Of a DNA stretch of 64,000 nt, positions 5,247 to 64,000 are shown piece after piece. Where the stretch lies: the NCBI RefSeq assembly GCF_037042905.1, contig NC_087245.1:18292001-18356000 (forward strand), written 5' to 3'. Below the pieces are notes generated by a model. That model did not search any database. It saw only the letters and a list, made by a program, of their open reading frames with translations, and was not told where the DNA came from. Numbering within the stretch: position 1 is the stretch's first letter; every line of letters starts with the position of its first letter. This DNA comes from Lytechinus pictus. Taxonomy: Eukaryota. Position numbers and translations under genes: made by a program.

Positions 5247-5480
5247 AATTATAGAAGTGAAATACACAAAGTCAACGGTATGTAGAAAGGGACAAAGAGA
5301 AAGATGAACTGGAGTGCCCCAAAGAATTATAGAAGTGAAATACACAAAGTCAACGGTATGTAGAAAGGGACAAAGAGAAAGATGAACTGGAGTGCCCCAA
5401 AGAATTATAGAAGTGAAATACACAAAGTCAACGGTATGTAGAAAGGGACAAAGAGAAAGATGAACTGGAGTGCCCCAAAG
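5247..5480. repeat. Perfect 78-bp x3 tandem repeat
   Basis: Units start at 5247, 5325 and 5403 and are identical. Confidence 0.95.
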
Positions 5481-5486
5481 AAAAAT

Positions 5487-6332
5487 AACAAATGGAACGC
5501 CTCTGGCTGTCTCGCCTCCATTACGCGATTCAATATAGCAGCAGTGCTGACTTTGAAAACAGCTATTGAATAATTATCCACACAAAAAAACCACTCATAA
5601 GATAATAAAATATTATGTCCATTGACCCAACATGACATATGACTATGATCATGTGACCTAAGACGTGTGCAAAACAATCATTCATACTTTGTTAACCGTA
5701 TATCTATGTTTCATGAACTACATGTGTAGATCCATAAACTTTTTAAGTTCTGATGATAATTCAACAAATGCCCCCAGCATGGCCAAAGTTCATTGACCTT
5801 AAATGACCTTTGATCTTAGTTATGTGACCTGAAACACGCATAGGATATTGAGGGATACATGATTACTCTAATGTCCAAGCTTCATGAACAAGATGTATAA
5901 ACTTTTAAAGTTATGATGACAATTCCACAAATACCCCTAACATGATCAAAGTTCGTTGACCCTAAGTGACCTTTGACCTGGAAGGTAATTTGACCTAAGA
6001 CTCAAGCAGGATCTTAAGTGATACACTATCACCCTAATGTCCAGGTTTCATGAACTAGATCTATAAACTTTTAAAGTTATGATGACAATCATAACTTTAA
6101 AAGTTTATAGATCTAGTTCATGAAACACCCCCAACATGGTCTAAGTTCATTGACCCTAAATGACCTTTGACCTTAGTCATGTGACCTGAACCTCAGGCAA
6201 GATTTTCAGTAATACTTGATCACCCTTATATCCAAGTTTCATGAGCTAGGTCCATATACGAGATATGAGATAAGATATGAGGACATTTTTAAAAACGTAA
6301 CCTTGGTTATTAAGGTTTAATGTTGATGACGC
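5487..6332 (-). mobile_element. HINE of the same family, 5'-truncated at the GGC microsatellite
   Basis: Reverse-complement homology to ~37065-37957, including the TGACCTTTGACCT core repeats. Confidence 0.82.
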
Positions 6333-20700: not shown

Positions 20701-21799
20701 TAAGGCTTGTTTGTAGGAATTCACTAAGTCCTTACGTATTTCACTAACCAAATGATGCGAGAGCGCGAAGCGCGAGCTAAAAAATGTTGATATTCAGATC
20801 AGAAAAATTGACATTTTAAGTACTGATTTTAGGAATTCATGAAGAGCAGACATCTCACCAATCAACTAATGCGAACGTTAGCACGGACAGGAAATGTTTT
20901 ATATTAAGACCTTAAAATTGGGCGATCACTTTAAAGGGAATAAAACCTTTGGAATAAGTAGGCTTGTATCGAAACAGAAAAATCAAAGAATAAGAACAAA
21001 GAAAGTTTGAGAAAAATCGGATAAATAATAAGAAAGTTATGAGCATTTGAATATTGCAATCACTAGTGCTATGGAGATCCTCCCGTTGGCAATACGACAA
21101 TGATGTGTGATGTCAATTTCCCTTTGATGGACTATAAAATACCCTCAAAATGTCTCTTTCTGCTTTTTCTTGTGGTGATACAAACTTTTAACCATGATGT
21201 ATTCTTTGAAAACTTTTTTATGATGAAATGAAAAGGACATTTTCAGTTGTTGGATTAGAATATAAAATATTTTCAGCTTGAGCTTCTCGTTCGCATAAAA
21301 AAAAACTGTGAGGTCGGGATGCGTATATAACTAAACAGTGATGCGAGCGCGAAGCGCGAGCTCAATTTTTTTATATACTGACTTAAGAAGGACTCTTTTA
21401 GGTGTAATTCCTATTCTAAAAGTTTTTCCTTCATCTCTTCGTCTTTTTTTTCTTTTTCTTTCCTTTTTTTGCGCCACCTAGGGGGGGGGGGGCAAAAACT
21501 TTTCCCCCTGGATCGGCCTATGTATATTGATTTGAAAAACACTTATGTACGTGTGATCGATGGAGAGGATACACACCTCACTAATCAAATATTGCGAGCG
21601 CGTAGCACCAGCTGAATTTGATATTAACCCCTTTTCTGACCCTGAACAGGATACCTATCTCGCCAAACAAACTTCAAACTCGAGCACATTGATTTTTGTC
21701 TATTATCGTAAAAACGGGATATTTTAAATCAGCCGCATTAATGTAACCATTTTGGGCAGGAAATAAATTTCACTATAAACAGGCAATACGAGCAATGTT

Positions 21800-24160: not shown

Positions 24161-24650
24161 AATTTGGCGAGGAAATTGCCCATATTACGCCATTCATTAT
24201 TTTCATTGTATCTCGGAATTGATCTGTAGAATGCCCAGGGACTCCTTCAGTGATTAGCTGTTGACAACATCCGGCTTAGCACTACCAACACCTTGTTCAT
24301 TTTGATTAGTTTAATTACTGAATTTCTCCTCTCTTCATTGTTTCCGTTTTTCATTTTTCGAAAGAATAATATCTTGAACTCAACCAGTGCCAAACTTAAG
24401 GACGTGCATTTTTTCCCTTGAGTTGCTTTATTTCATAGCCATTAGTTGAGATATCAAGATCAAATTGTTATAATCATGATAATGACTCAAATCTTGTTCA
24501 TGATCGGGGTTATTTCTTTGTTTGTACTCAATAATCACACCCGGATTTATTCATGATAATAGAGCCTTAAGGAGCTGAACGCACAGCATTTCAGTTACCT
24601 TTGAAAATCTTATCTCCTGTCTTTCTATATAAAAAGTACATAGCCATTTT

Positions 24651-26091
24651 CAACCGCGTAGCCAGGATTTCATTTTGGAGGGGGCGGTAAATGCACGCGA
24701 AGCGTGCCAACACTTACAGAGTGTGCGAAGCGCGCTCCCCAGGGGGTGGGTGCAGGGAGGAGGAATTTGCCCCTCCCGCGCGAAGCGCGAAGCTTTCGGC
24801 GTTTCATGAATTAAAATGAAAAGGAGCCGTCTCTCTTGTCTCTAGTACCTATATCAGCTCCAATTCAGTTGACTATATTGTGATTTTGAACCTTGTTTTC
24901 AAAAGTGATTGTGAATGCACAAAAAAGGATAAAATGGAGGAAATTAAAATAACAATTACCCCGCGCAAGGCGTGGAAGCTTAAGTGTTTTATCAAAAATT
25001 TTCCAAAGAAAAGGGTCCCGAGATAAGGGTTCTCTAAGTTACAATGAATACGTCCCTTGGAAAGATCAGATTTGATTACAAACAATTATATCTTTAACTC
25101 GCAAAATAGATGAAAAAGGGTATATGCCGGGAGGAAGATATTCCTCCCCGCCCTGAGCAATGAAACTCTGAAATTTCAAAGGGCAGACGTTTCATCAAAT
25201 GCAGATATCTCTAATACCCCATCGGCTCTAATTAAATTGATTCTATAAGATTATTGAAATTCATTACAAGGAAAATAGTGCACAAAAATTGAAACTTCTG
25301 TGATTTATTAAATTATATGAAAAATTAAAAGGATGATTTCTTTGACTATTATCCTGAACCGCTTCATTTTGAATGATAAAGAAACTTAGGTGTCATTCAA
25401 AATTTCAAACTGAGGGCGTAAAACAGGACAGGAGATGAATGTGCAGGGACATGAAGTTTAATAGAATTTGAAGAAAAAAAACATTGTACTTTTTTATTTA
25501 ATACGACACGAATTGTATAACTTCCTCTTTTTAAATAAGTACCTGTTTGCCCCCAAATTATGGTTGTTTAGTAATGAGCTGAAAAGCGGGAGAAGTTGCC
25601 TATATGGAGGTGACGGCAGAAATTGATATTAAGATTTTACCCGCCCGGAGTCGACCCGACCAGAAGTTGCGCGATCAATTTGAAAAAAAAAGATAACTTC
25701 ATATACTTCGGACTAACCTTACTCTAATTCCATGCCCTAATGTATACATTTGAACTTTAACTGGCAAGAAACACATAGCTGAGGTGGAAAAACAGGGTTA
25801 GAGAAAGGGTGAGGGGATACAAAGGAGAACTGCAATCCCGGGACTGCAATATTGTCATTTAACCGCGCGCGGCGCGGAAGCAAAATTCATATAAATTTGG
25901 AGCAAGAGTGAAAGATTTTCTCTGTTGAGAAAAAATAAGAATAAAAAGAAAACCCACAAAGCTACATTTTTTCCCTTTCCTCCCTTCGCTTTTCCTTTTC
26001 TCCTCTCTTTTTTCCCTTCTTTTTTTTCTTTTTGGGGACGTTTGGGGGGGGGGGCGACCGCCCCCACCGCCCCCCCCTGGCTACGCGCATG
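24651..26091. mobile_element. Non-autonomous hAT-like element, copy 1
   Basis: Same termini as copy 2; 8-bp TSD GCCATTTT (24643-24650 and 26092-26099). Confidence 0.88.
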
Positions 26092-36538: not shown

Positions 36539-38297
36539 CACTGCGTATGAAGAAAAGTTTACATTTGAAAATAATCCCATCAAATAATAAGCCTATATTC
36601 GTAAGGCTTTTCCACATTTATACATTGGTACATGTCTCTTTAAGCGAATGACGAGGTAACTGAATAAAAATCTTTCCGCCGGAAAGATTTTTTGCATGAA
36701 CTTTTCAAAAGTGGTGCTCACTCAAGTTGAGTGAGCACCACTTTTGAAAAGTTCATGCAAAATGATTTTCGCAAAACTTGAACAGTTATATGGATAAAAG
36801 TAGACGTCAATCATGAAGAGCACACGGATTTTAGCTAGGAAGAATGATTTGAAGATAACTTTTACCGTTTCAATGTGTTTCCTTGCCCCAAAACTGCCTG
36901 CGAACGCCAATATACGCCCCTCCCACACACAGAGGACATCGTGATGATATTTGCTTTAGGCCTACACATAGCAGTGATGAGCATGAAATGGCTGAAGCTT
37001 GATTTTTGTCTCACCTGCATAGCAGAGTGAGACTATAGGCGCCGCTTTTCCGACGGCGGCGGCGGCGGCGTCAACACCAAATCTTAACCTGAGGTTAAGT
37101 TTTTGAAATGACAGCATAACTTAGAAAGTATATGGACCTAGTTCATGAAACTTGGCCATAAGGTTAATCAAGTATTACTGAACATCCTGCCTGAGTTTCA
37201 TGTCACATGACCAAGGTCAAAGGTCATTTAGGGTCAATGAACTTAGACCATGTTGGGGGAATCAACATCAAAATCTTAACCTAAGGTTAAGTTTTTGAAA
37301 TGTCATCATAACTTAGAAAATATATGGACCTAGTTCATGAAACTTATACATAAGGTTAATCAAGTATCACTGAACATGCTGCTTGAGTTTCACATCACAT
37401 GACCAAGGTCAAAGGTCATTTAGGGTCAATGAACTTTGGCCGAATTGGGGGTATCTGTTGAATTACCATCATAACTTTGAAAGTTTATGGATCTGATTCA
37501 TGAAACTTGGACATAATAGTAATCAAGTATTACTGAACATCCTGTGCAAGTTTCAGGTCACATGATCAAGGTCAAAGGTCATTTAGGGTCAATGAACTTT
37601 GGCCAAATTGGGGTATTTGTTGAATTACAGCCATAAATTTGAAAGTGTGTTGGTCTAGTACATAAAACTTGGACATAATAGTAATCAAGTATCACTGAAC
37701 ATCCTGTGCGAGTTTCAGGTCACATGATCAAGGTCAAAGGTCATGTAAGGTCAAAGAACTTTGGCCACGTTGGGGGTATTTGTTGAATTGCCATCATATC
37801 TCTATAAGTGTATTGGTCTAGTTCATAAAACGTGGAAATAAGAGTAACCAAGTATCACTGAACATCTTGTGCGAGTTATAGTAGTTTTCAAAATCAGCAC
37901 TGCTGCTATATTGAATCGCGTGATGCAGGTGAGACGGCCAGAGGCATTCCACTTGTTCTTCTGTCAATCATTGTCAAATTGTTGTGAAAAATGTGGAGAA
38001 AAAAGTATTAAAATGAATTGTATAGGAAATTGTAAACACACTTTAAATGATAAAATCGTATCGAACAAATTCTTTTTCTTTGACCCAGCGTGAAAATGAA
38101 CATTCCTGCACAAAAAGATTCCTGCGAGCTTTACAAAAATGGACAGTGCTCACTCAAGTGTTGCATTCTGTCAATATTTTTACTTTCATCTGATAGATAA
38201 GACCCAAAACCAATTATGTGAAAAATTATCCACATGTTGTATATTTTCAAATTCCCATGACTTTTTCAAAGTGTAAACTTTTCATTGATGTGCACTG
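36539..38297. mobile_element. Tc1/mariner-like non-autonomous element hosting a HINE
   Basis: Left end TA|CACTGCGTATGAAGAAAAGTTTACA matches the right end reverse complement TA|CAGTGCACATCAATGAAAAGTTTACA. Confidence 0.65.
37003..37957 (+). mobile_element. Helentron-associated interspersed element (HINE/DINE-like), complete
   Basis: T-run target; subTIR GTCTCACCTGCAT (37008-37020) pairs with ATGCAGGTGAGAC (37923-37935). Also a 5' internal inverted repeat, (GGC)n, tandem units of 192/163/162 bp, a 3' hairpin and a CTTGT end. Confidence 0.85.
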
Positions 38298-38757
38298 TAT
38301 ACAGTAAAAAAATAGAACATTGTTTAAGCCTGTCACTCTAACAACAAGTTGTTTAAACTTTTTTAATTGTTTAAACTTAATAAACAACTTGTTTTAAAAG
38401 AAACAGTTGTTTAAAAAGATTTAACAATAGTTAGAGTGGCTTGAACAACGTGCTTAAAATTTTAAACGTTTTTACAGTATATATATCATTTTATTTGTTT
38501 TCATTTTTTTCACTGTTTATTATTTACAAGAGAGTCGCCACAGGTTGTGTGTATTTATCTAATTTCCCTTACTCTCAAATATTTATATGTATATATATAT
38601 ATGTGTGTGTGTGTGTAATTCACAGAAAGCCCTTTAAATTACAAAACAGCACTGATATTAATCTCTAATACAATACGACAAAGACAAATCATTACTATAA
38701 AATATTGTTCCTTGCAGGAGACTAGTTTCCCTTTTCATTGTTTGAAATATCAACATT

Positions 38758-38889
38758 ATAAATACATTTTCTTTTCTTAGCAGAAGTATCCGATTAGCAT
38801 AACAATGCTTGCGTGAGGAGTGTCTGAATTCCTAAACGATTCGGAATTCACTGACCGAGTTCGACACAGCACAGTACGGACGTCTTATT
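38758..38889 (+). repeat. Split direct repeat A1 (132 bp)
   Basis: Identical by eye to A2 at 44291-44422. Confidence 0.95.
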
Positions 38890-38971
38890 TTCAACGCTTC
38901 TTCCACGTGTTAAACTCTATAGGCCTTATCGTAATAGATCTACGTTTGGATTCGATGTTAAATATAAAATA

Positions 38972-39900
38972 ATGGCGAATCAAGAAATTAACCTCGGGTT
39001 ATGCCACAAATTAAAGGCAGTTTTCAGAAAATTTTACTCAATAATCTGGAGTCTCTTCGCCTTCTTGTAAGCAATGCTACAAAGGAAGCATTGGCTCGTT
39101 TAAAGATTGGGCTGGCTGTTTGATTATGTTGATTCTCGATACATTGCCCGGGTCAGCGGAGCTTCTACAACTAAAAAAGGGCGTCGGAGATGTCTTTCGA
39201 AAGGTAATAAGGTTCAATATGAATATAATTCTAGAGGCCAGGAGGAGTTGGATAAGAAATTTGCCTTATTAGAGTAAGGTAAGCAGCGGGCGCAGCCCTT
39301 GCTTTGCTGAAGTAAGGTATTGCAGATATAATTAAAAGGAAGAAACATATCAGAAAAGCAGATGAATCTGAAGCAGGTTAGTGAGATAAAGATGAATGAA
39401 AATTCCAAACTAAGCTATTGCTTTTGAAATTTATGAACGGTTGTACATAATAGATATGGCCTTATGTTGTTAATGGAAGCTGTTCGTTTTTCAGCGGAAT
39501 TACTTTATGACTTAATTATGGGAGATTAATCAAATAAATATATAGAGATCATTTTTATATTTTAGGTTGGTCCGCATTGGATGAATACTGATGAGGGAGA
39601 AAAGAATGAGGCAAGCTCAGGCTTGTGTAAATAGAAAGCGTAAGTTATTTCGTTCAACAAACAAAGGTTATATTGGGCAAGAATGTTGGAAATTTTCAAG
39701 GTTCTTCTACTACTTCCGACAACTTATATTCGTATACCCTTTGGGTCAAGAAATCGATATTCGCTTGGCAGTGTCGCCAACTTATATGTACAAAATAGTT
39801 GGCGCGGGTATGCAAGTTGCCTCAGACCACCGACGAACGTTTTGCCTGTGGTAGACATGGGCACTGGAGAAGTTGCCCAGGTATCAGGAAGCAAGATCCC
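38972..39900 (+). pseudogene. Decayed gag-like ORF of the YR retrotransposon, with a GT-AG intron at 39377-39565
   Basis: Motifs KGNKVQYEYN, RKKHIRKADESEA|GWSALDEY across the intron, and a degenerate zinc knuckle RFACGRHGHWRSCP (~39838-39879). Contains stops and frameshifts. Confidence 0.75.
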
Positions 39901-40379
39901 AGCAAGATTCATCCTTCAGAGATAACAATGCTCAACAGAGTTAAATGATCCATTGATCATGGTCTGAGCAAGGTAAATGTCAGTTTTGTTCTGTATTTGA
40001 CGAAGTGTGGTATTTGAGAACTGAAGAGTAGAATGATCAGAAGGGCGTAGCAAAGGAATCTATTCTTGATTCTACCTAGTCCATAATTATATGTTAAGAA
40101 AAGATGTGTTATTTTGGTTGAATTCCACCTCTTACTAATGAACCTAGACATAGATATGACACAGATCAAACAATCTGGAATATATTGACTACTCCTGGTC
40201 CGTCAGCGGGCCCTTCTAAATTAAGAAATATAGAAACAGAGCATTGTTGAATTTGTTTCGGTTGGGAAACATCGAGTAACGTTAGTGTTGATTCGACAAG
40301 ATGTGCAGGGTAGGAGGAAGAATTTTATTTGAGAAATTATGAGTATGATCAATGAAATTCAGAACCTTTGGTTAAAGGT

Positions 40380-41790
40380 AGATTGAATGCTTCCTTACAA
40401 TTTGGAAATCAACTGATGCATCTCAATTTGTTGTAGATGTCAATGAACATGGTTACAAATTACCTTACAATAAGATGATAAGTCAGCATTGACATCGATC
40501 CCGATTTCGTTTATGAAGCCATTAACGAATTATTATTAAAAAGGGTTTGGTTGTTGAATCCACCACTACACCCCATGATGTTACCCCCTTTCAGATTCAA
40601 TTCAGAGTTCAGATATAAAAAGAGACTGATTCTTGGTTAACGTTATGTCAACTAACACTTGTGGAAGAACACTATTATACTTGAAGACTGGAATGTAGTC
40701 ATGTCTTATTTAAAACAGGGAGATTTTATGCTTTCCTTTGAACTTAAGCAAGGTTATCATCATTATTACATTTTTCAAGTGCATGAAAAATTGTAGGCTT
40801 TAGTTGGGAATTTGGTAGTGGTACAAGGTTTTTCTCCTTTTAGGTGTTGTCATTGGGTTGGCAACAGCTACCTTTGTTTTCATTACACGATTTAAGCCTA
40901 TCGTTAATCATTGGCGTATAGAAATGGTATTTTCATTTTTTTTTTATATAGATGATTGGGTCGTGCTGCTTCCTTTGATTCGTATGATACTATGGTCAAG
41001 ACGGTGAAAAATGACTTACTTGAAGCAGGTTTGATACCACATGTTGAGAAATATCTCAATGGACTCCTGTCCAGTGTTTGGATTGGTTAGGAATACCACG
41101 GGAAAGCAGAGTAGCTTATATAAAGATTACTGAAAGAAGGATGAAGGATCTTGAGTTATGTTCAGATTCATTTCAAGCAGAATTGCCTGAGGTTTCAGAA
41201 CGAAAGATCGTAGTTATAGTTGGAAAGATACATTGTATCCAGTGTTTGGCACAGTTACTCAAATTAAAACCAGATTTATGCATCACGAAATCATCCGGAG
41301 GGTACATTGGGATAGGACATAATGTGATCAATAGTGATGAATTAATATTCGTGTTCTTCTTCTGGAGAAGAATTTGCATATTCTTAACGTAAACATTATT
41401 TCTGCTTATTAAGTTCCACAGACTTTCATCTATTCTGATGCAAGTCCATCAGGCTGCGGGGCCTGGGTTTCTGAGTGCGCAGGCATGAAATGGGATGAGA
41501 TTGGTTTGAGTTTGAAATGGTTAAAAACTCCACTTGGAGAGAACTCAAGTCAGTAAGTATGACACTGCAAACAGTTGTATCTCACATGAGACATAAAACT
41601 GTTAAGGTCCTCTGTGATAATAAAGGAGTAGGATCGATTGTAAATAAAGGAAGTATGATTGCAGAATTGCATGAGATGAGTTTACACATCTTTGAGTTGT
41701 GTAAAAGAAACAACATTAGTCTTCACGTTCATTGGGCTCCCAGAGAGGAGAACCGTTTTGCAGATGCACTAAGTCGCATGATAGATTTTG
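40380..41790 (+). pseudogene. Decayed reverse transcriptase / RNase H
   Basis: FMLSFELKQGYHH (~40725-40763), YIDD (40945-40956), YSDAS (41431), NSTWRELKSV, CDNKGV, WAPREENRFADALSR. Many frameshifts. Confidence 0.88.
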
Positions 41791-42180
41791 ATGATTGGGG
41801 TGTATCAGATGAATTTGTCGGATTTTTGGACAAAATCTGGGGCCCTCACACTGTGGACAGACTTGCGGACGATTTTAATTTCAAAATTAAGAGGTTCAAT
41901 TCTAAATATTGGTGTCCCCTAATAGATCATGTTGATCCCTTCTCATGTGATTGGTCGGGCGAGAATAATTGGTTGGTTCCACCTATCGAATGTATAGCAT
42001 GTATAGGGCAAGTACTTAAGCATCTGAATGTTTTGTTCTGCTAGGGGGACTTTGGTTGTTCCCTTCTGGCCGTCTGCACCCTTCTGGCCGATTCTTTTCT
42101 CTGAACAAAGTGATTTTCGTTCCTTATTCTCTGAATACTTCAAAATTGATAATCCTCAAGGAATTTTCGTTCAAGGCAGA
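41791..42180 (+). pseudogene. DIRS-type DNA N6-adenine methyltransferase-like domain
   Basis: DWGVS...WGPHTVDRLADDFNFKIKRFNSKYWCP...DWSGENNWLVPP, then frameshifted GTLVVPFWPSAPFWP. Confidence 0.8.
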
Positions 42181-42924
42181 AATAATAATAAAAAAAAAAA
42201 TAATAATAATAAAAACGGTTTGTGAGAGATGGCTGACATGAATGCTGGTATGTAATAAATCCATTTGATGGAGGTTAATTCAAAATTATACTGTTGGAAT
42301 GCAACATGTAATTTTTACACGGCCGCATGGCAGATAGCTGCATAGCTAGGATCCACTTATGCTGCAGAGCAAAGAAGTGGTGATGGAAATTGGAGAATGT
42401 TATGATTATGTAAAAGGATAACCATCGTAAAGGTTGATAAGGAATTGATATGAGATTTCATTCTCAAATTAGTTATAATTTACTGGCGGCGGAGCTCAGA
42501 ATGAAGAAATTGGTGATGATTGAAAACATTCAAAGTCTCAAAATTACAGAATTCTTGTGAATGAAATGTTTCAGAAAGTTTTTTGCAAGTGTTTTAAGGC
42601 AAAAATAAATATTTTCGCAAAGGAAATGAATCCCAAAGCTATTGTTTTGCTAAGCCTTCAAGACGATTGAAACGAATTATGATATGGAATTGTGATCTAA
42701 TGAATTTCATACTGAAATTTTAGTGAAAATATAAAACCACCTGGTTTGAGGATAGCTGCATAGTTAATGTTTAATTTTGCTGTCATGGCTGTAAAACGTA
42801 TTAGAAGTGATTAAATTTTGAATGAAGAATGACTGAACTTGAGAATTTATCACAATTTGAATATATTGTGTTGAGATAAATATATACCAGCTTATAAGTT
42901 TTGTTTAATTTTTCTTAAATCCAG

Positions 42925-43904
42925 AAATTCTCTTCATGAAGGATATGATATAACTTTGAACAAGGTCTTGACAGCTTCGAGAGCTGATAACACTATGAGT
43001 AAATACAACAGAGCGTTGAATACCTGGAGAGATTAGTGTAAGCAAAATAAAGTAAATTCTGACACAGCAGAACCAGAAGATATTAGTCGCTATCTTATTC
43101 ATTTGTATCAAAGAGAAGCTCCTTATTCGAGGATAGAATCGGCTTTTTACGCCATTAAGTGGCATTTTGACTGCAAGCCAAGGATGAATTCATGTTAATC
43201 CCTGTGATCGCAAGTTCAAACATATTGTTTTACAATGTTAAAAAAAAAAAAAAATTACTAAACAAACCGATCGTTAAGAAAGAAGTTATAACCCCAGACA
43301 TTTTGAAAGCAGTTGTTGAGAAGTATGGATCTTCAACGAGTCTATTAGATATTCGATTATGTGCTATGATTTTGATTTCCTACGCAGGCATTCTACGATT
43401 TGATGAAATGATACATATTCGTAAATGTGATTTAGACTTGTATTTGTCTCATGTGAATACTTTCATCATGAAAAGTAAAACCGATATTTACAGGCAAGGA
43501 GCATGGGTTCTTATAGGTGCTACAAATTCCCCACCTGCCCCGTATTAGCTTTGAGGAAATATTTGATTGCAGCGGGGCTTAACGATGCCTCTGATGAAGT
43601 ATTTCTTTTTAGGCCTCTAAATTACTGTAAATCCAGTAATAGTTACAAGTTAAGACGTGGACAGTTGTCTTATACTAGATGTTTAGAATTATTGAGAGAG
43701 GCGTTGGCGAAAGTAGGGTTGAATCCAAAGAGTTTTGGCATGCATAGCCTCCGAAGTGGCGGAGCCACAGCAGCAGCGAACTTTGGTGTTCCAGACAGGT
43801 TGTTTAAGAAACATGGTAGGTGGAGGTCGGAGACTGCTAAGGATGGATATATTAAAGACAATATGAAGGATTGTCTTTCAATTTATATGAATTTGGGGCT
43901 TTAG
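42925..43904 (+). pseudogene. Tyrosine recombinase, frameshifted
   Basis: Catalytic motifs ILRFDE, KSKTD, HSLRSGGATAA and KHGRWRSETAKDGY, split over ORFs 43192-43548 and 43503-43904. Confidence 0.92.
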
Positions 43905-44125
43905 AATTATTTTTATACCGGGTAAATTAGCCTCAGCCTAGTATGATTATACGTATAACTTTGTTAAAGATGGATTGTAGGCGTTCGATGAGATTGTTGA
44001 ATGAGACATGTATTATTATCATTATACATTTAAAGTTGGTTAAATTGAAATGATTGCGTCGTGTAACTCATTTTCTTGTTTACCCGTTCTTTGATTGACT
44101 GAGAGGGGGAGCTATAAGTTTAGCT

Positions 44126-44294
44126 TGTCTTGCCGTCGAAGCTTGGTGCTCCCCTCGAAACAGGTATGTTTTTTGGAAAGTATATAAATGTTTTCTATTT
44201 CAGGTGTTGATGTTGTTGCACTGGTTGTGCTTAAGGATAGTGAGGCGTGACTGAAAATAATTTATTCACGATTGAGAGTCGAATTAGGGAATAA
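44126..44294 (+). repeat. Split direct repeat B1 (169 bp)
   Basis: Identical by eye to B2 at 44585-44753; overlaps A2 by ATAA. Confidence 0.95.
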
Positions 44295-44422
44295 ATACAT
44301 TTTCTTTTCTTAGCAGAAGTATCCGATTAGCATAACAATGCTTGCGTGAGGAGTGTCTGAATTCCTAAACGATTCGGAATTCACTGACCGAGTTCGACAC
44401 AGCACAGTACGGACGTCTTATT
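44291..44422 (+). repeat. Split direct repeat A2
   Basis: Copy of 38758-38889. Confidence 0.95.
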
Positions 44423-44584
44423 CGGGATGGATATGTGGACGATTGACTGGATGCAAGAAGATAGAGCAAAGAGAATTCTGATGGATGAATAGGCCTTACA
44501 GCATGTACAGTACATTGATGAGTTCTTCGAGATCTGAACTCAGAGGGAGGCCTCAGTACATTCGTCAGTAAGTACCGTTCGTGC

Positions 44585-44753
44585 TGTCTTGCCGTCGAAG
44601 CTTGGTGCTCCCCTCGAAACAGGTATGTTTTTTGGAAAGTATATAAATGTTTTCTATTTCAGGTGTTGATGTTGTTGCACTGGTTGTGCTTAAGGATAGT
44701 GAGGCGTGACTGAAAATAATTTATTCACGATTGAGAGTCGAATTAGGGAATAA
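44585..44753 (+). repeat. Split direct repeat B2 (element 3' end)
   Basis: Copy of 44126-44294. Confidence 0.95.
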
Positions 44754-46214
44754 GAAAGGTCTCGAACATTCAAACAGTAGAAGCACATCAGTAATAGTAG
44801 AAGTAAAGGCCAAGACATGAGTCTCACAATGTCTGTCTATCAACCTGACACCATCAATCTAATATTGAATAGGCCTCTTCTTGTTATTAATGGATATTAA
44901 AGACCCTTTTCCCCCTTTTGAGTTTATTTCACCTATCTTTAAAAAAATTGAGATGAATAAATAGAGAAAATCAAACCAAATGTCATCAAAATCGGAAGTA
45001 GAAGTATTTATGATATATTTAAATTTCGCCTAGTTTCACAAAGCAATGCTTTGCACATCATAAACGATATATGGACGTAGGGGACCCGATGCTGTTACAC
45101 ACTGTATCCTTTGTATGTTTTATTACCTTTATCAAATATTTCATTTTTCCTCAAATTATGCAGTCCTAAAACCTGCAGAATCTTCATTTTATTATTCATT
45201 GTAAATGATTGGAGAGTTTATCTCTATATCACCTAAGCTAAAAATCAAGTTTATTACATGAACTATTGTAAAATACAAGCGAAAATCGAGTGTGTCACAT
45301 CATTGGCCTCCACATCTGCGTACATCACTGGGTATTTTAAACCTTTTATAATCTAACATTCTATTTTGATGAAACTTTCAGTGTTATGTCTTTTTTTCTG
45401 GTTTTCTATTCAAGTTTATTTATTTTTGTTGACGTGGACGCGGCCTTTAAACAGCCTACCGTATTACATCTCACTTGCCTTTCAGTGCGTGAAGCGAGTA
45501 GGATCATCACGTTTAAACGAGGAGCTTTAGAGGTTAAGTTCAAACCCAGCATACCAGGCGTGCCTGTATCATCACGTCCGTTGAGAACAACTCGGCACTG
45601 ATACCATAACCATATGTTGTATGCAATACGTCTTCATTCCAAATCCACCATGTGATGTTATGTGGGAGGACGGCTTAGGGGAGGTGGATCCCTCTCACTT
45701 CAAATCCCAAAGTAAGCAATGCATATTGAAATTAAATATATATTGTTTTTTTTCTCTGAAAAAATACAAGACATTTCATAGTAGAATGAAAGAACAGATG
45801 AGTTTATATTCACCCAGATTATTTTTTTAATGAACAAATGAACTCTAGCATAGCATACAGACATTGATACATTACAAAATAACCGAACAGATTTAGGATC
45901 CGAGGAACTGGTATATACCATGGACCTACTACGTCCATGTATATACATACGGCATTGTTACTGGAGATTAAAACCTTGATTTTGACAAACCCCATTTGAT
46001 CAGCTACATTGAGATCGGAAGTGGTGCGGCGAATGGTGATGTCGCCCTTCATCGTTATAAACATTGTGCTAAAATTATGAAAATACATCCTTACATGATA
46101 TACACCATGTGTGAGAATCCAGTTTTTGAAAATGTTTAATCCCCTATCACATAGTTTGTTCATAGGATCACGACTTCGTACGAATTTGCTTGTTTGGTTG
46201 ATCCTTTGTGGAGG

Positions 46215-46500
46215 TACTGTTCTGGATCTGGATGTAATACAGTGCAGGACCGTTAGGTATAATGTACCGGGTTAGGAGAGGGCGCAAATGAGTTTAGTCA
46301 AAACGTAGGTGGCTTTCTTCGATCTTTGCTTTAAACACCTCTGGTGATGTACTGCTGACAACTTCGTTAGGGAGTTGATTCCAGGCCAACGTTGTATTCA
46401 CAAAAAAAAAGAATTTCTTAACTGCTATATGTTACAATGTCTTATTGAAAAACATTTGGAGTTATTTGTTACTTGTCTCTCTACCACATTAGTAGCATCA
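46215..46500 (-). mobile_element. LINE (CR1-group) 3' fragment
   Basis: Translates to RNSFF..VNTTLAWNQLPNEVVSSTSPEVFKAKI (ORF2 C-terminus), followed by an ATCCAG-repeat tail. Confidence 0.7.
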
Positions 46501-54983: not shown

Positions 54984-56650
54984 ATGGCGACCCGTGGATT
55001 CTTGGCGAAGAGTGACGACGAAATATCAAAGAGCATTGAATATCAACCGCGTAGCCAGGATTTCATTTTGGAGGGGGCGGTAAATGCACGCGAAGCGTGC
55101 CAACAATTACAGAGCGCGCGAAGCGCGCTCCCTAGGGGGTGGGTGCAGGGAGGGGGAGTTTCCCCCTCCCGTGCTTTTGGTGTTTCATAAATTAAAATGA
55201 AAAGGAGCCGTCTCTCTTGTCTCTAGTACCTATATCAGCTCCAATTCAGTTGACTATATTGTGATTTTGAACCTTGTTTTCAAAAGTGATTGTGAACGCA
55301 CAAAAAAGGAATACAATGGAGGAAATTAAAATGATAATAAACCCGCGCGAAGCGCGGAAGCTAAAGCGTGTTATCATTTGTTTTGCCATGAAAAGGGTCC
55401 CGAGAAAAGGGTATTCTCAAAGATACATTGAATACTTCCCTTGGAAAGATCAGATTTGATTACAATTTAGCGACAGTGCATATCTTTAACTCGCAAAACA
55501 GAGGAGAAGAAGTGTATATGCCGGGAGGAAGATATTCCTCCCCGCGCAGAGCAATGAAACTCTGAAATGTCAAAGGGCGGACGTTTCATCAAATGCAGAT
55601 ATCTCTAATACCCCATCATGCCCATCGGCTCTAATTCAATTGATTTGATAAGATTATTGAACTTCATTACAAGGAAAATAGTGCGCAAAAAGTTGGAACT
55701 TCTGTGATTTATTGAAATTATGTAAAAAAGGATGCCTAATTTCTTTGACTTATCCTGAAGCGCTTCATTTTGAACTATCTCAAGTGTCATTCAAAATTTC
55801 AAACTGAGGGCGCAAAACAGGACAGGAGATGAATGTGCAGGGAAATGACATGAAGTTTAATAGAATTCGATAAAAATATTGTACTTTTATTTAATACGAC
55901 ACGAATTTTATACCTTCCTCTTTTTAAATTAGGAACCTGTTTGCCCCAAAATTATGGTTGTTTAGTAATGAGCTGAAAAGCGGGAAAAGTTGACTTTATG
56001 GAGGTGACGGCAGAAATTGATTTTACCTGCCTGGAGCCGACCCGACCAGAAGTTGCGCGATAAAAAAAAGATAACTTCATATAGTTCGGCCTAATCTTAC
56101 TCAAATTCCATGCCCTAATGTGTACATTTGAACTTGGCAAGAAACACATATAGCTGAGGTGGAAAAACAGGGTTAGAGAAAGGGTGGGGGAAACAATGGA
56201 GAACTTCAATATTGTCATTTAACCGCACGCAGCGCGGAAGCAAAATTCATATATAAATTTAGAGCAAGAGTGAAGGAGTTTCTCTTTTGAGAAAAAAATA
56301 AAGAATAAAAAAAAGCTACCTTTCTTCCCTTTCCTCCCTTTCCTTTTCTCCTCTCTTTTTTCCTTTTTTTTTCTTTTTGGGGACGTTGGGGGGGGGCGAC
56401 CGGCCCCACCGCCCCCCTGGCTACGCGCCTGTTGAATATGCCTCTAAAATGCTGAATATTGACCAATTTAAGGATTTGCAAGTCGATAAAATTAAATCTG
56501 CACTGAAAGGACGAGATGTTTTTGGAAATCTACCCACAGGATATGGAAAAAATATTATCTTTCATGCGATTCCACTATGTGTCGATTATCGTTCTCCGCA
56601 GTGCAGTGAGGGAATGCTGGAGTAGAGTTGTTTCCCCTTGACTCGAGTCT
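54984..56650 (+). pseudogene. RecQ-like SF2 helicase N-terminus of AcademH, interrupted by hAT insertion 55044-56431
   Basis: Removing the insertion and one TSD gives MATRGFLAKSDDEISKSIEYASKMLNIDQFKDLQVDKIKSALKGRDVFGNLPTGYGKNIIFHAIP (Q motif plus Walker A), followed by a frameshifted VVSP (motif Ia). Confidence 0.8.
55044..56431. mobile_element. Non-autonomous hAT-like element, copy 2
   Basis: Ends CAACCGCGTAGCCAGG / CCTGGCTACGCGCCTG; 8-bp TSD TTGAATAT; collinear with 24651-26091. Confidence 0.88.
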
Positions 56651-58583: not shown

Positions 58584-58976
58584 AGGCCCGACTTCACAAA
58601 GGTAGTTTTGAAAACCCACGGTTGAGTCCATGGTTTATGCAGATTTCCTGTATAAATTACGCTTAAATTAGCGCGTATCGGGCGCGTGTATAAAATGTCC
58701 AATGCGCGCTTTTGTCACAGTGCGCCAAATTGACGCCTGTTGCCGTGGTTATCCACGCTATTTTATTCATGAGTCCACTGTTTTTATTCACGAGTCCACT
58801 CTTCAAACAGTGGACTCTTGAATAAAATAGCGTATCTAACCATGGTAACATGCGTCAATTTGGCGCACTGTGACAAAAGCGCGCATCAGCATTGGACATT
58901 TTTTTATACACGTGCCCGATACGCGCTAAATTAAGCATAATTTATACAGGAAATCTGCATAAACCATGGTCTCAAC
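58584..58976. mobile_element. Palindromic Harbinger-like MITE, right tip lost
   Basis: Long inverted arms ~58620-58750 and ~58845-58976; left end AGGCCCGACTTCACAAAG. Confidence 0.65.
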
Positions 58977-59082
58977 CAACGAACGTAGAGGGCAGCAACA
59001 CACAAGCGTGTTGCTCTAAGGAAGGTCAACTCGATACGCGCATACAGCTGAGCTGCGCGCATATTTTATTGTTCATGCCAAC

Positions 59083-60790
59083 CAACGAACGTAGAGGGCA
59101 GCAACACACATGGCATGGACGGCGAAAAAAAACAACCCACGCATCAGATGCATTGCATTGGCTGCGCGCTGCGCTGCAGCTGCACTGTGATGATGGGTTC
59201 AGCGAAGAGCTCAGAGAAAATAAGGTGGTCATATTCAATCCCGAAATGCTTTGCGAGTGGTCACAAAATCGTCTCGACGCAAATCACCTAATACAGCCGA
59301 TTTGGTAATGATTTTAGTTTCCTGAAACTTATATTTGTAAAGTTTTAAATATCAAAGTATGTTTTTATATGTATGTATATTCCTCAACATATTTTTTAAT
59401 GTTATCTTTGACATTGTTGTAGTCATATTCTTTCATATTCGTTTCTTGATCGCTACTAATTTGTTGTTGTATTGGATCGGCACAACGAACGTAGAGGGCA
59501 GCAACACACAAGCGTGTTGCTATAAGGAAGGTCAACTCGATACGCGCATGCAGCTGAGCTGCGCGCGTATTTTATTGTTCATGCCAACGAAATCAAATGC
59601 CGATCCAATACAACAACAAATTAGTAGCGATCAAAAAACGAATATGACAAAATATGACTACAACAATATCAAAGATAACTTTAAAAATATGTTGAGGAAT
59701 ATACATACATATAAAAACATACTTTGATATTTAAAACTTTACAAATATAAGTTTCAGGAAACTAAAATCATTACAAAATCGGTGATTGTTGTTATCAGCG
59801 ATTTCACCAGACGGCTGTATTAGGTGATTTGCGTCGAGCCGATTTTGTGACCACTCGCAAAGCATCTCGGGATTGAATATAACCACCTTATTTTCTCTGA
59901 GCTCTTCGCTGAACCCATCATCACAGTGCAGCTGCAGCGCAGCGCGCAGCCAATGCAATGCATCCGATGCATGGGTTGTTTTTTCGCCGTCCATGCCATG
60001 GTCTCGGACTCAGAGTTGAAATTTAGACCCGGATTTCGGGGATACAGCGCCTTTATTTCAGATTTATAGACTTAAAAGTCAAATGACATTTAAAATTTGA
60101 AATCTAACCTTGAACAATCATCGTTGATAAACATCAGCCCTGAAGCCATTACACTTCAAATCAGGCCAGGCAAATTAGACGTCATTGTCTAAGTTGCTAG
60201 ATCTATGACGAGTCGCCTGAAGCCCCAGCGCATCATCAACGTCACTAGCTAGCTGCGCGACCGGCCCAGACTCGGCGCACCCAGGCCAGAAAAATGACCT
60301 CGATTATTACGGTGGTTGTCTATGCATTTATTAGTGGTGCAGCGAAATTCAGCAGAAGAAAATAAGAGATATGAGGTATCCTCGTCACAGGCTTAATATT
60401 CCAAAATGAGGAAAAATGTCAAAATCATGATTATTTAAGCTAAATATTTTCTTTAAAAATAAAAGTAATATTTTTAATATTTATACCCAGAATAACCGAT
60501 CTAATAATTGTGCATTAAAAAATATTTGAAATTAACAAATGAAATAAAATCAACTCGACAAATTTCCCAAAACCCCACCTTATTTTTTAAAGTGGTCACA
60601 AAATTCGAGCGGAGTTGACCTTCCTTAGAGCAACACGCTTGTGTGTTGCTGCCCTCTACGTTCGTTGGATCGGCATTTGATTTCGTTGGCATGAACAATA
60701 AAATACGCGCGCAGCTCAGCTGCATGCGCGTATCGAGTTGACCTTCCTTAGAGCAACACGCTTGTGTGTTGCTGCCCTCTACGTTCGTTG
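59083..60790 (-). mobile_element. Same element, middle copy (inverted, internally deleted)
   Basis: 8-bp TSD ATGCCAAC (59075-59082 and 60791-60798); one TIR cut to 28 bp. Confidence 0.85.
59483..60667 (+). mobile_element. Same element, innermost full-length copy
   Basis: 8-bp TSD GATCGGCA (59475-59482 and 60668-60675); nearly identical to 62725-63910. Confidence 0.88.
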
Positions 60791-61507
60791 ATGCCAACGA
60801 AATCAAATGCCGATCCAATACAACAACAAATTAATAGCGATCAAGAAACGAATATGAAAGAATATGACTACAACGATATCAAAGATAACAATAAAAAATA
60901 TGTTGAGGAATATACAACCATATAAAAACATACTTTGATATTTAAAACTTTACAAATATAAGTTTCAGGAAACTAAAATCATTACCAAATCGGTGATTGT
61001 TGTTATCAGCGATTTCACCAGACGGCTGTATTAGGTGATTTGCGCCGAGACGATTTTGTGACCACTCGCAAAGCATTTCGGGATTAAATATAACCACCTT
61101 ATTTTCTTTAAGCTCTTCGCTGAACCCATGCTCTATGCTTAAGCTACATTATGCTCCGTCGTCTGCTTAGATCTCAACCTCTAGTCTAGCACTGGTACTT
61201 GCTAGGCGTCGATCAGCATTTATCTGCAGCCCATAGACCGTGACTAATTTATTTATTAGAACCGGCAGCAATGCCAATGGGTATTAAACAAACTTATTCA
61301 CGTACATCTATCAGTAGTATGTTATTTCTTTTCACCATTTTCCCAAAAACTTATAAATTTGGAAATACATTCCAATCAGTAATAAGTGAAGTCTACATCT
61401 AACTTAGATCTTGATCATGTTGATCGATAGACCCAAAGCTTCAGTCTCTGTATTTTGGTTGTTCTGCTGAACTGCGCTGGCTCACTCTCACCGATGGAGA
61501 TTATAGT

Positions 61508-62560
61508 CAGTGGCGTAACTACGGGGGGGGCACGTGCCCCCCCCCCCCCCCAATCGGCTGGCAAAAAAAAAAAAAAACGGGGAAGAGGAGAAAGGAAGAG
61601 AAACGTAGTGGGAATGAAGAAATTATTGTTCACTATAATGTTATATTATAATTATGTTATGTTATAATATATAAGAAACATTATTTCATTAGTTTATTTT
61701 GCTTAAGCCTAGATGTCTTCATTGTTCCCGGTACTCGCATTGTCTAGCGTTTTTAAGTCAATATACACCAAATATATTTCCTCGCACTTCGACTCATTAT
61801 TGTTTTATGTAGTGACATATGGTTCTTTTTCATGACTACTTAAAGTGATTGCCCCGTTTTAAGGTGTTAATATAAAACATTTCCTGTCCGTGCTTATGTT
61901 CGCACTAGTAGATTGGTGAGATATGTCTGCTCTTCATGAATTCCTAAAAATCAGTCCTTAAAATGTCCCTTTTTCTGATCTGAATATCAAAATTTTTCAG
62001 CTCGCGCCTCGCGCTCGCATCATTTGGTTAGTGAAATACGTATCGTATGGTCTTAGTGAATTCTTACAAACAGGCCTTAGAATGCCTCTCTTCAGGTCTG
62101 AATATCCTAAATTTTCAGCTCGCGCTTCGCACTCGCAATATTTGATGAGTGAGATGCATAGTATCATGATTACAATGACTACAAAAAGTGCTTCATGTGT
62201 TTAGATGTAGCAAAATCAGCAAGCGCTTTGCACTCGCATTAGATGACTATGGTGAGATATGTATACTCTTAATGGATTCCTAAAATATAGTCCTTAACAT
62301 GTCCTTGTTTGGGGTCAATATTTACACAAATTTCAGCTCGCGCTTCGCGCTCGCATTGTTTGTTTAGCGAGACAGGTATGTATCATGATTACAAAAATGT
62401 ACTTATAATGTCCTTTTTTGGTCTGCATATCAAAAATTTTCAGCTCGCGCTTCGCGCTCGCATTATTTGAGCAGTGACATACATATCCGTTTAATGGCAC
62501 TGTCTTTAAAATGTCCCTATTAGGTCAGTATACCTGGCAACTGAGCGCGCTTCGCGCGCT
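61508..62560. mobile_element. hAT-like element arm, inverted homolog of ~20215-20934
   Basis: Starts CAGTGGCGTAACTACGGGG. 61840-62550 is the reverse complement of the segment nested from 20149, with repeated GCTCGCGCTTCGCGC motifs. Confidence 0.75.
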
Positions 62561-62724
62561 CACTAATACCGTGTTTACACTTAATCGGCATTTGGTTCTG
62601 AACCAATTGCCGATGCAGAATCGGCATTTGGATTGCGTTTACACGTTGTTACAGCTCGCGGTTCAGAACCGCGAGCCGATGCAAAAACCTAAAATGATAC
62701 GCATACCTACAATATAGTCATAAT

Positions 62725-63910
62725 CAACGAACGTAGAGGGCAGCAACACACAAGCGTGTTGCTATAAGGAAGGTCAACTCGATACGCGCATGCAGCTGAG
62801 CTGCGCGCGTATTTTATTGTTCATGCCAACGAAATCAAATGCCGATCCAATACAACAACAAATTAGTAGCGATCAAAAAACGAATATGAAAGAATATGAC
62901 TACAACAATATCAAAGATAACTTAAAAAATATGTTGAGGAATATACATACATATAAAAACATACTTTGATATTTAAAACTTTACAAATATAAGTTTCAGG
63001 AAACTAAAATCATTACCAAATCGGTGATTGTTGTTATCAGCGATTTCACCAGACGGCTGTATTAGGTGATTTGCGTCGAGACGATTTTGTGACCTCTCGC
63101 AAAGCATTTCGGGATTGAATATAACCACCTTATTTTCTCTGAGCTCTTCGCTGAACCCATCATCACAGTGCAGCTGCAGCGCAGCGCGCAGCCAATGCAA
63201 TGCATCCGATGCATGGGTTGTTTTTTCGCCGTCCATGCCATGGTCTCGGACTCAGAGTTGAAATTTAGACCCGGATTTCGGGGATACAGTGCCTTTATTT
63301 CAGATTTATAGACTTAAAAGTCAAATGACATTTAAAATTTGAAATCTAACCTTGAACAATCATCGTTGAAAAACATCAGCCCTGAAGCCATTACACTTCA
63401 AATCAGGCCAGGCAAATTAGACGTCATTGTCTAAGTTGCTAGATCTATGACGAGTCGCCTGAAGCCCCAGCGCATATCATCAACGTCACTAGCTAGCTGC
63501 GCGACCGGCCCAGACTCGGCGCACCCAGGCCAGAAAAATGACCTCGATTATTACGGTGGTTGTCTATGCATTTATTAGTGGTGCAGCGAAATTCAGCAGA
63601 AGAAAATAAGAGATATGAGGTATCCTCGTCATAGACTTAATATTCCAAAATGAGGAAAAATGTCAAAATCATGATTATTTAAGCTAAATATTTTCTTTAA
63701 AAATAAAAGTAATATTTTTAATATTTATACCCAGAATAACCGATCTAATAATTGTTCATTAAAAAATATTTGAAATTAACAAATGAAAAAAAATCAACTC
63801 GACAAATTTCCCAAAACCCCACCTTATTTTTTAAATGGTCACAAAATTCGAGCGGAGTTGACCTTCCTTAGAGCAACACGCTTGTGTGTTGCTGCCCTCT
63901 ACGTTCGTTG
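62725..63910 (+). mobile_element. 1.19 kb non-autonomous TIR element (P-element-like), stand-alone copy
   Basis: 56-bp TIRs starting CAACGAACGTAGAGGGCAGC with 1 mismatch; 8-bp TSD GTCATAAT. Superfamily inferred from CA ends and the 8-bp TSD. Confidence 0.85.
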
Positions 63911-64000
63911 GTCATAATAAAGACAACGCTGGATCAGTGCGCTTACAATTACGTCACAATGGCAAAGCAATTGAAATGCGCACAAATTGCTGGTGCAGAA

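What the first reader, a model, noticed from the sequence alone, without database searches (positions are those of the whole stretch)
38758..44753. PAT-like retrotransposon with dead genes but identical terminal repeats: recent mobilisation in trans
Seen: A1=A2 (132 bp) and B1=B2 (169 bp) with no mismatch I can find, while gag, RT/RH, MT and YR all carry stops or frameshifts. Known: split direct repeats are homogenised at each retrotransposition. Inference: this copy inserted recently and was already coding-dead, so it belongs to a full-length non-autonomous lineage that uses an active helper.
Basis: partly seen in the sequence, partly recalled or inferred. Interest (0 to 1): 0.7.

Follow-up and report, generated by a model that had tools for sequence, protein, structure and literature searches.

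The report
Gene-dead PAT retrotransposon, young end repeats
A 6-kb jumping gene in a sea-urchin-like genome has about 36 breaks in its genes but two pairs of perfectly matching end repeats, so it most likely moved recently on enzymes borrowed from a relative, a known way of life for mobile elements that is shown here for one copy only.

Summary
Observation confirmed. A1=A2 (132 bp) and B1=B2 (169 bp) are exact; gag, RT/RH, MT and YR carry about 36 breaks, 0 in 7 control alignments of intact relatives. Decay in place from an intact insertion predicts 17-36 differences in the repeats; none is seen (P about 6e-8 or less). It is a PAT-type DIRS element (MT present, split direct repeats with a spacer, ATAA crossover core). 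Two additions: breaks drop from 16 to 3 per kb at about 41500 (scan P 0.001 or less), so the body is a mosaic of two ages; and gag has a 189-nt intron at a site shared with echinoderm relatives. Recent movement in trans is the best reading, but sister copies, helper, empty site and transcript were not seen: no genome was held and no reads were laid. That split repeats are fully homogenised at each jump is not established in the papers read. Precedents exist (TOC1; wheat non-autonomous Angela), and the scan noted gene-less split-repeat elements elsewhere in this genome.

The parts
38758..44753 (+). Whole PAT-type tyrosine-recombinase retrotransposon, 5996 bp, order A1-gag-RT/RH/MT-YR-B1A2-spacer-B2
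38758..38889 (+). Repeat A1 (132 bp); begins with the ATAA core at the left junction
   Evidence: exact match to A2
38972..39376 (+). gag exon 1, dead (6-7 breaks, 2 of them stops)
   Evidence: 68 of 132 aligned residues identical to P0258, a Diadema setosum gene model
39377..39565 (+). 189-nt spliceosomal-type intron in gag (donor GTTAGT after CAG, pyrimidine tract and AG)
   Evidence: sequence; relatives' ORFs end or diverge at the same codon; splicing itself not observed
39566..39938 (+). gag exon 2, dead (5 frameshifts), with a decayed CCHC zinc knuckle near 39830-39880
   Evidence: 59 of 114 aligned residues identical to P0258; no Pfam hit on the window's own piece
40320..41499 (+). RT and start of RNase H, heavily decayed (19 breaks in 1180 bp; first catalytic Asp reads Glu at 40740)
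41500..42183 (+). C-terminal RNase H and Dam-like methyltransferase (MT), lightly decayed (1 break)
   Evidence: Pfam RVT_3 E 2.9e-7; Dam E 0.12 on own piece, 2e-5 to 3e-4 on aligned relatives; 52-58% identity to P0001
42184..42919 (+). MT-YR interval, A+T-rich, about 200-450 bp longer than in 5 related loci; ends in an acceptor-like site before YR
   Evidence: distances read; no protein or in-window match; acceptor inferred from where Diadema gene models enter YR
42920..43904 (+). Tyrosine recombinase, dead (4 breaks); R, H-x-x-R, H and Y active-site residues still readable
   Evidence: 77% identity to P0121 of Diadema antillarum; Pfam Phage_integrase and Phage_int_SAM_1 below cut-off on the pieces
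44126..44294 (+). Repeat B1 (169 bp)
   Evidence: exact match to B2
44291..44422 (+). Repeat A2 (132 bp); 44291-44294 is the ATAA shared with B1, the internal image of the circle junction
44423..44584 (+). Unique 162-bp spacer between A2 and B2, with a GTAAGT donor-like site at 44568
   Evidence: a relative (L007) has a 205-bp spacer between two 304-bp repeats
44585..44753 (+). Repeat B2 (169 bp); ends with the ATAA core at the right junction

Best explanation
This is a young copy of a coding-dead, full-length PAT-type retrotransposon that is moved in trans. Shown: the anatomy, the dead genes, the exact repeats, the single ATAA core at all three junctions, the two-age mosaic. Inferred: the unspliced full-length RNA (it keeps the gag intron) is packaged and reverse-transcribed by the proteins of an autonomous relative; the cDNA ends are joined on the internal B1-A2 junction into a circle; the helper's recombinase crosses the circle's ATAA with a genomic ATAA. 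gag and RT died first (about 5-8% neutral change); later the 3' half (RH end, MT, YR; about 3%) was replaced from a younger copy, most simply by template switching between co-packaged RNAs; repeated rounds kept A and B identical while the genes drifted.
For: 0 differences where decay in place predicts 36 (lower bound 17; P 2e-16 to 6e-8); even the lightly decayed 3' half, dated by conserved columns, predicts about 19 (P 7e-9). Repeats at most 0.5% diverged per lineage (95% bound). Break density 15.8 versus 3.0 per kb with a step at 41500; 0 of 1000 and 1 of 1000 uniform simulations reach it; MT shares the RT reading frame, so protein-level selection cannot easily spare it once RT is broken (inference). 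Both ends are complete and carry the core. Other two-copy repeats of the window are mostly 69-99% identical (27 listed; besides A and B only one short tandem array is exact). Eight runs of two studies hold 0.56-0.64 of the sampled words of 37900-46500, of which the flanks can supply at most 0.30, so at least 37-48% of the element's words occur exactly in other data sets, against 9-32% expected from an intact ancestor: the decayed sequence is not private to this assembly. Precedents: TOC1 (PMC9940879); wheat RLC_Angela non-autonomous subfamilies of full size with degenerate CDS (PMC9744471).
Against: Only one copy was seen. No helper: best intact relatives in the protein collection are 59% (RH-MT) and 81% (YR) identical, though the host's own elements may be absent from it. 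Exact look-ups of 5 of 5 window fragments found nothing; the A repeat was absent from metagenome contigs; the scan's index had no look-alike stretch. The run shares fit equally a uniform 98.2-98.6% (label A) or 97.7% (label B) match over the whole stretch, that is the same locus in other individuals or a second species label, which would make the insertion older than its repeats suggest. The divergence estimates rest on 8 stops and on 164 conserved columns (after dropping 2 RT columns that were a register slip and 1 MT column in a small duplication). By frameshifts of the 3' half alone, identical repeats are unremarkable (P 0.24).
Confidence: 0.55

Rival explanations
1. Old insertion that decayed in place (after an ectopic exchange that made the mosaic), whose repeats were later made identical by gene conversion within the element or from young family members. 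No recent movement.
For: Uniform 98-98.6% identity across the stretch explains the run shares as well as a multi-copy family does, and a second organism label holds 0.49. Conversion between LTRs is known for LTR elements (recalled; mentioned as a route of LTR transfer in PMC9744471). B1 and B2 are only 459 bp apart.
Against: Needs two recent, full-length conversions, one over 5.5 kb, erasing 17 or more expected differences to the last base. Neighbouring repeat pairs are not homogenised, including a 163-bp-unit array 900 bp away at 61-79%.
Confidence: 0.2
2. One-off jump: a long-dead copy (not an established lineage) was transcribed and moved once by a helper, and that single round rebuilt both A copies and both B copies from one template each.
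For: Explains exact repeats with only one copy seen and no look-alike in the scan's index.
Against: Needs complete re-templating of 301 bp in one round, which the DIRS-1 model does not demand (inference), and a dead donor that kept working cis signals. The two-age mosaic points to at least one earlier event.
Confidence: 0.15
3. Assembly or polishing artefact: repeats collapsed to one consensus, or lesions are sequencing errors in an intact young copy.
For: 4 of 18 pol and YR frameshifts lie near runs of 5 or more equal bases against 5% background; 6 of 18 near runs of 4 or more against 18% (P 0.10). No reads were laid.
Against: 8 stops, 10 of 56 conserved RT columns changed against 2% in 48 relatives, and in-frame deletions are not homopolymer errors. 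Only 12% of the stretch's 31-mers cross a break, so word shares cannot clear the indels one by one, but they show much of the decayed sequence in other data. Repeats of 132-169 bp are shorter than any long read (inference).
Confidence: 0.06

Closest known systems
Echinoderm-form Pat1-like elements (PAT group of the DIRS order; described from Strongylocentrotus purpuratus; PMC4157794 section 7)
   Same: gag with zinc knuckle, RT/RH, MT, YR on one strand, A1...B1A2...B2 split direct repeats, internal repeat not between MT and YR
   Different: All genes dead while the repeats are exact; intron in gag; two-age mosaic. No SpPat1 sequence was at hand, so closeness to it is untested.
TOC1 of Chlamydomonas reinhardtii (called a non-autonomous DIRS retrotransposon with copy-number variation among strains, PMC9940879 passage; listed as active in laboratory strains, bioRxiv 2022.05.23.493040 passage)
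   Same: Non-autonomous, split-repeat element of similar size that still moves (split-repeat structure, size and spacer recalled, not from a call)
   Different: Green alga; movement is observed for TOC1 and only inferred here; here all four genes are still readable against close intact relatives.
Non-autonomous RLC_Angela subfamilies of wheat (Copia; PMC9744471 passages)
   Same: Full-size elements with many frameshifts and stops that keep moving with autonomous partners and can exchange terminal repeats with them
   Different: LTR element with DDE integrase, where both LTRs are rebuilt in each round by a known mechanism and thousands of copies prove the lineage.
Ngaro elements (PMC9210276, PMC8547959 passages)
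   Same: Split direct repeats after YR; gag-less deletion variants occur in Cafeteria
   Different: Ngaro lacks MT; this element has it.

Membership tests
PAT group (DIRS order) | RT/RNase H plus tyrosine recombinase, no DDE integrase | tested here: met
PAT group (DIRS order) | Methyltransferase domain after RNase H | tested here: met
   Own piece Dam E 0.12 only; aligns at 52-58% to P0001, whose residues 560-665 hit Dam at E 2.8e-4; other relatives E 2e-5 (all under Pfam's cut-off)
PAT group (DIRS order) | Split direct repeats A1-B1-A2-B2 | tested here: met
PAT group (DIRS order) | RT/RH tree places it with reference PAT elements | not testable with these tools
   No named reference sequence was returned; the tree only places it in a supported set of 12 rows with P0001, P0002 (Amphiura), P0003, L001, L002
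Echinoderm-form Pat1-like | Zinc knuckle in Gag | tested here: inconclusive
   Relic motif with first Cys replaced and one residue missing; aligns to the intact knuckle of P0258; no Pfam hit on own piece
Echinoderm-form Pat1-like | YR on the same strand; internal repeat not between MT and YR | tested here: met
   placement rule from text of PMC4157794 section 7 (figure not seen)
Ngaro | No MT domain | tested here: not met
   MT region present
DIRS1-like | Inverted terminal repeats and internal complementary region | tested here: not met
   No inverted repeat joins the two ends among the 25 longest of 34 pairs shown; ends are direct repeats
Non-autonomous lineage (TOC1 / Angela type) | No functional protein encoded | tested here: met
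   about 36 breaks over gag, pol, YR
Non-autonomous lineage (TOC1 / Angela type) | Several copies at different sites sharing the lesions | not testable with these tools
   No genome held; no reads laid; word shares are compatible but do not tell sites apart
Non-autonomous lineage (TOC1 / Angela type) | Autonomous partner with matching terminal repeats, active at the same time | tested here: inconclusive
   None found among proteins (best 59% and 81%) or metagenome loci (best 72%); host genome not searchable

The most novel reading that the evidence does not exclude
An animal PAT lineage that has lived as a full-length parasite of its helper for long enough to lose all four genes in two steps, keeps a spliceosomal gag intron through reverse transcription, and has both split repeats rebuilt completely from a single template in each round; the dead copies would then be a natural marked-repeat experiment on the untested replication mechanism of split-repeat elements, and the spacer's donor-like site could feed the recombinase gene only once the element is a circle.
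Probability: 0.25. Interest if true: 0.62.

Novelty: new variant of a known kind. Interest (0 to 1): 0.42.

Why it matters
How split-repeat (PAT, Ngaro, VIPER) elements rebuild their ends has been worked out only by analogy with DIRS-1, as far as the passages read show. A dead body that has drifted 3-8% between perfectly matched repeats bounds that mechanism: either each jump rewrites all 301 bp, or the lineage has never rested. It also warns that dating such elements by their genes, or by their repeats, can differ by more than tenfold, and that gene-finding misses the intron-split gag of this echinoderm clade. Without sister copies it remains one well-described fossil of a known life style.

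Tried and rejected
Whole genome: none held, so no copy count, helper search or empty-site search. Reads: one search returned no data, so which part of the stretch the runs hold, their letters at the lesions and any junction reads remain open. Exact look-up of 5 window fragments: 0 of 5. A 22-base pattern from repeat A in metagenome contigs: 0 matches. Related loci: 20 in metagenomes, best 72% on the YR piece, none of this family; none in viral contigs. Earlier findings by sequence and nearby: nothing. Host exons: 0 Pfam hits in 102 of 126 ORFs of 70 aa or more outside the element (24 low-complexity or overlapping ones left out); short exons would be missed, so an intronic position is not excluded. 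RNA structure in A, B, spacer and junction: z from +0.16 to -1.58, no signal; Rfam: 0 matches in 43905-44800. CpG depletion does not date the parts. Ngaro and DIRS1-like membership rejected (MT present; direct repeats). Chance identity after decay in place rejected. The segment chi-square used boundaries chosen after seeing the data and was replaced by the scan test.
Full report
OBSERVATION. The repeats are as described. A1 (38758-38889) and A2 (44291-44422) agree at 132 of 132 bases, B1 (44126-44294) and B2 (44585-44753) at 169 of 169, and similarity ends abruptly at each border. This fits integration of a circle by a tyrosine recombinase at a short shared core, as described for DIRS elements (PMC7192593 section 26). 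A unique 162-bp spacer separates A2 from B2. A metagenome relative, L007, shows YR, a 304-bp repeat, a 205-bp spacer, the same repeat and then gag, which I read as a circular or tandem junction of an element with the same design. No second copy lies in the window.

THE GENES. Protein searches returned 225 relatives of the RH-MT piece (best 59%) and 593 of the YR piece (best 81%, Diadema antillarum); with earlier notes on this genome this points to a sea urchin host (inference). A frameshift-aware alignment gives 20 breaks in RT-RH-MT with either of two references and 4 in YR with either of two, and 11-12 in gag against a Diadema setosum model: 36 in 3624 aligned bases, 8 of them stops. The aligner made 0 false breaks in 7 of 7 intact controls. 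In RT, 12 of 58 conserved columns differ (10 of 56 after removing a register slip at the YxDD motif) against 2% in 48 relatives, and the first catalytic Asp reads Glu; RH end 1 of 20, MT 4 of 29, YR 6 of 60. The MT is weak in Pfam on its own (E 0.12) but aligns throughout to relatives that hit the Dam family. With MT, split direct repeats, YR on the same strand, the internal repeat behind YR and a relic zinc knuckle, the element fits the echinoderm form of Pat1-like elements as defined in PMC4157794 section 7 (figure not seen). It is not Ngaro and not DIRS1-like. Placement against SpPat1 could not be tested; my tree (34 rows, one 181-residue piece) only shows a supported set of 12 close rows.

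IS THE CONTRAST MORE THAN CHANCE? About 4% of random substitutions make a stop in intact relatives. Eight stops give about 5% neutral change (lower bound 2.3%), plus 0.5-0.8% frameshifts per base. Two copies of each repeat ageing independently for that long should differ at 36 places (lower bound 17); the chance of none is 2e-16 to 6e-8. Conserved columns give the same answer independently: about 7.5% for RT and 3% for the 3' half, the latter still predicting 19 differences. The weakest version, frameshifts of the 3' half alone, predicts 1.4 and says nothing (P 0.24). The repeats are at most 0.5% diverged per lineage. So an intact element did not insert here and then simply rot.

A TWO-AGE BODY. 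Breaks fall from 15.8 per kb (31 in gag and RT) to 3.0 per kb (5 in RH end, MT, YR) at about 41500. A scan over all change points is matched by 0 of 1000 uniform simulations, or 1 of 1000 without gag. MT is in the RT frame, so selection on protein cannot easily explain its better state once RT is broken; replacement of the 3' half from a younger copy is simpler, by template switching or by ectopic exchange (inference). Either way both halves are older than the repeats.

AN INTRON IN GAG. gag is interrupted at 39377-39565 by 189 nt with a good donor and acceptor; removing it gives the spacing seen in contiguous relatives (8 proteins; loci L006, L007, L012). Of 11 close gag relatives, 3 unspliced-type ORFs stop at exactly this codon, 2 run on into peptides that fit donor sequences, 2 Diadema setosum models continue with the exon-2 peptide, 3 others read straight through (spliced or intron-less, unknown) and 1 ends earlier; the query model P0240 also leaves homology there. 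Their DNA was not seen, so this is read from peptides. The intron therefore belongs to the active clade, and the RNA that is copied must be unspliced at this site (inference). Splicing itself was not observed.

OTHER DATA SETS. One search listed 23 runs; 8 rows of 2 studies (label A) hold 0.56-0.64 of 888 sampled words of 37900-46500 and 1 row of a third study (label B) 0.49. The flanks are 30% of the stretch, so at least 37-48% (A) and 27% (B) of the element's words occur exactly, against 32, 17 or 9% expected from an intact ancestor at 3, 5 or 7% change. Much of the decayed sequence thus exists outside this assembly. The rows are chosen as best holders, one may be related to the source of the window, and none was laid, so the shares fit either many near-identical dead copies or the same locus at 97.7-98.6% identity in other animals. 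The second reading would make the insertion older than its repeats (about 4-7 differences expected by hand arithmetic) and favour conversion. This is the main open point.

HOW IT MOST LIKELY WORKS. Shown: anatomy, dead genes, exact repeats, core, mosaic. Inferred: an unspliced RNA from A1 into B2 is copied by a helper's Gag and RT; the cDNA ends are joined on the B1-A2 junction to a circle; the helper's recombinase inserts it at an ATAA. If that holds for PAT, exact repeats need a lineage that kept moving (best, 0.55); if one round rewrites everything, a single jump of a long-dead copy is enough (0.15). Old insertion with conversion gets 0.2: it needs two complete recent conversions, while 24 of the 27 repeat pairs listed for the window are 69-99% identical and the third exact one is a short tandem array. 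Artefact gets 0.06: 4 of 18 frameshifts are near runs of 5 or more bases, but stops and changed conserved residues are not such errors.

COMPARISON AND NOVELTY. Non-autonomous DIRS-order elements are known: TOC1 (PMC9940879), SIRE as an A2-B2 derivative of VIPER (PMC6681497), gag-less Ngaro variants (PMC8547959). Full-size elements with degenerate genes that keep moving are documented for wheat Angela (PMC9744471). The scan itself noted gene-less A...BA-spacer-B elements elsewhere in this genome, one said to have about fifty copies (unchecked notes), which suggests helpers of this general kind are active there; no sequence link to this element was found. [quoted passage not shown] 1988: not seen) and Repbase. 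What I saw: passages of PMC9940879, PMC8226300, PMC9210276, PMC6681497, PMC9744471, PMC3266345, PMC12477816 and bioRxiv 2022.05.23.493040; passages plus one section each of PMC7192593, PMC4157794 and PMC8547959; search listings only for the rest, including search 49 on LTR conversion. No supplements were read; those of PMC9210276 list the state of repeats and ORFs per copy and may hold like cases.

VERDICT. A real, well-bounded PAT-type element whose ends are at least several times younger than the death of its genes. Recent movement in trans (lineage or single jump together about 0.7) is the best reading, of a kind already known; the mosaic and the gag intron are the new details. Interest 0.42.

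Noticed in passing
window 44290-44295 and 38757-38762: The internal B1-A2 junction spells AATAAA (a polyadenylation-signal motif, recalled); the left genomic junction spells TATAAA; the right junction spells neither.
   Followed up: no
window 44164 and 44623 (in B), 38780 and 44313 (in A), 44568 (spacer): Both repeats and the spacer carry splice-like sites: a donor in B with an AG about 40 nt later, an acceptor in A, and GTAAGT after a short reading frame in the spacer. On a circle the spacer donor would lie upstream of YR.
   Followed up: partly
window 39939-40319 and 42184-42919: The gag-RT and MT-YR intervals are longer than in related loci and match no protein at hand; close relatives' RT and YR ORFs begin with pyrimidine-rich, intron-like peptides, so RT and YR may be expressed by splicing in this clade.
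   Followed up: partly
L007 652-1464: 304-bp direct repeat (99.7%) around a 205-bp spacer between YR and gag: looks like a circle or tandem junction of a related PAT element, with an ATAAA near its middle.
   Followed up: partly
window 36690-36762: Perfect 36-bp inverted repeat with a 1-nt loop.
   Followed up: no
window 58966-63911: Young rearranged cluster: 1.2-kb direct duplication at 98.7% with inverted pieces of 95-100% between the copies.
   Followed up: no
window 37071-37877 and 5727-6280: Array of about 163-bp units 900 bp left of the element, with inverted relatives 31 kb away.
   Followed up: no
window 19237-21639 and 61914-62514: Many spaced copies of a short G+C-rich near-palindromic motif, with an inverted set near the window's end.
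   Followed up: no
window 24650-26091 and 55043-56431: Two copies of a 1.4-kb dispersed repeat at 85% identity.
   Followed up: no
window 5247-5487: Three nearly exact tandem copies of a 78-bp unit.
   Followed up: no
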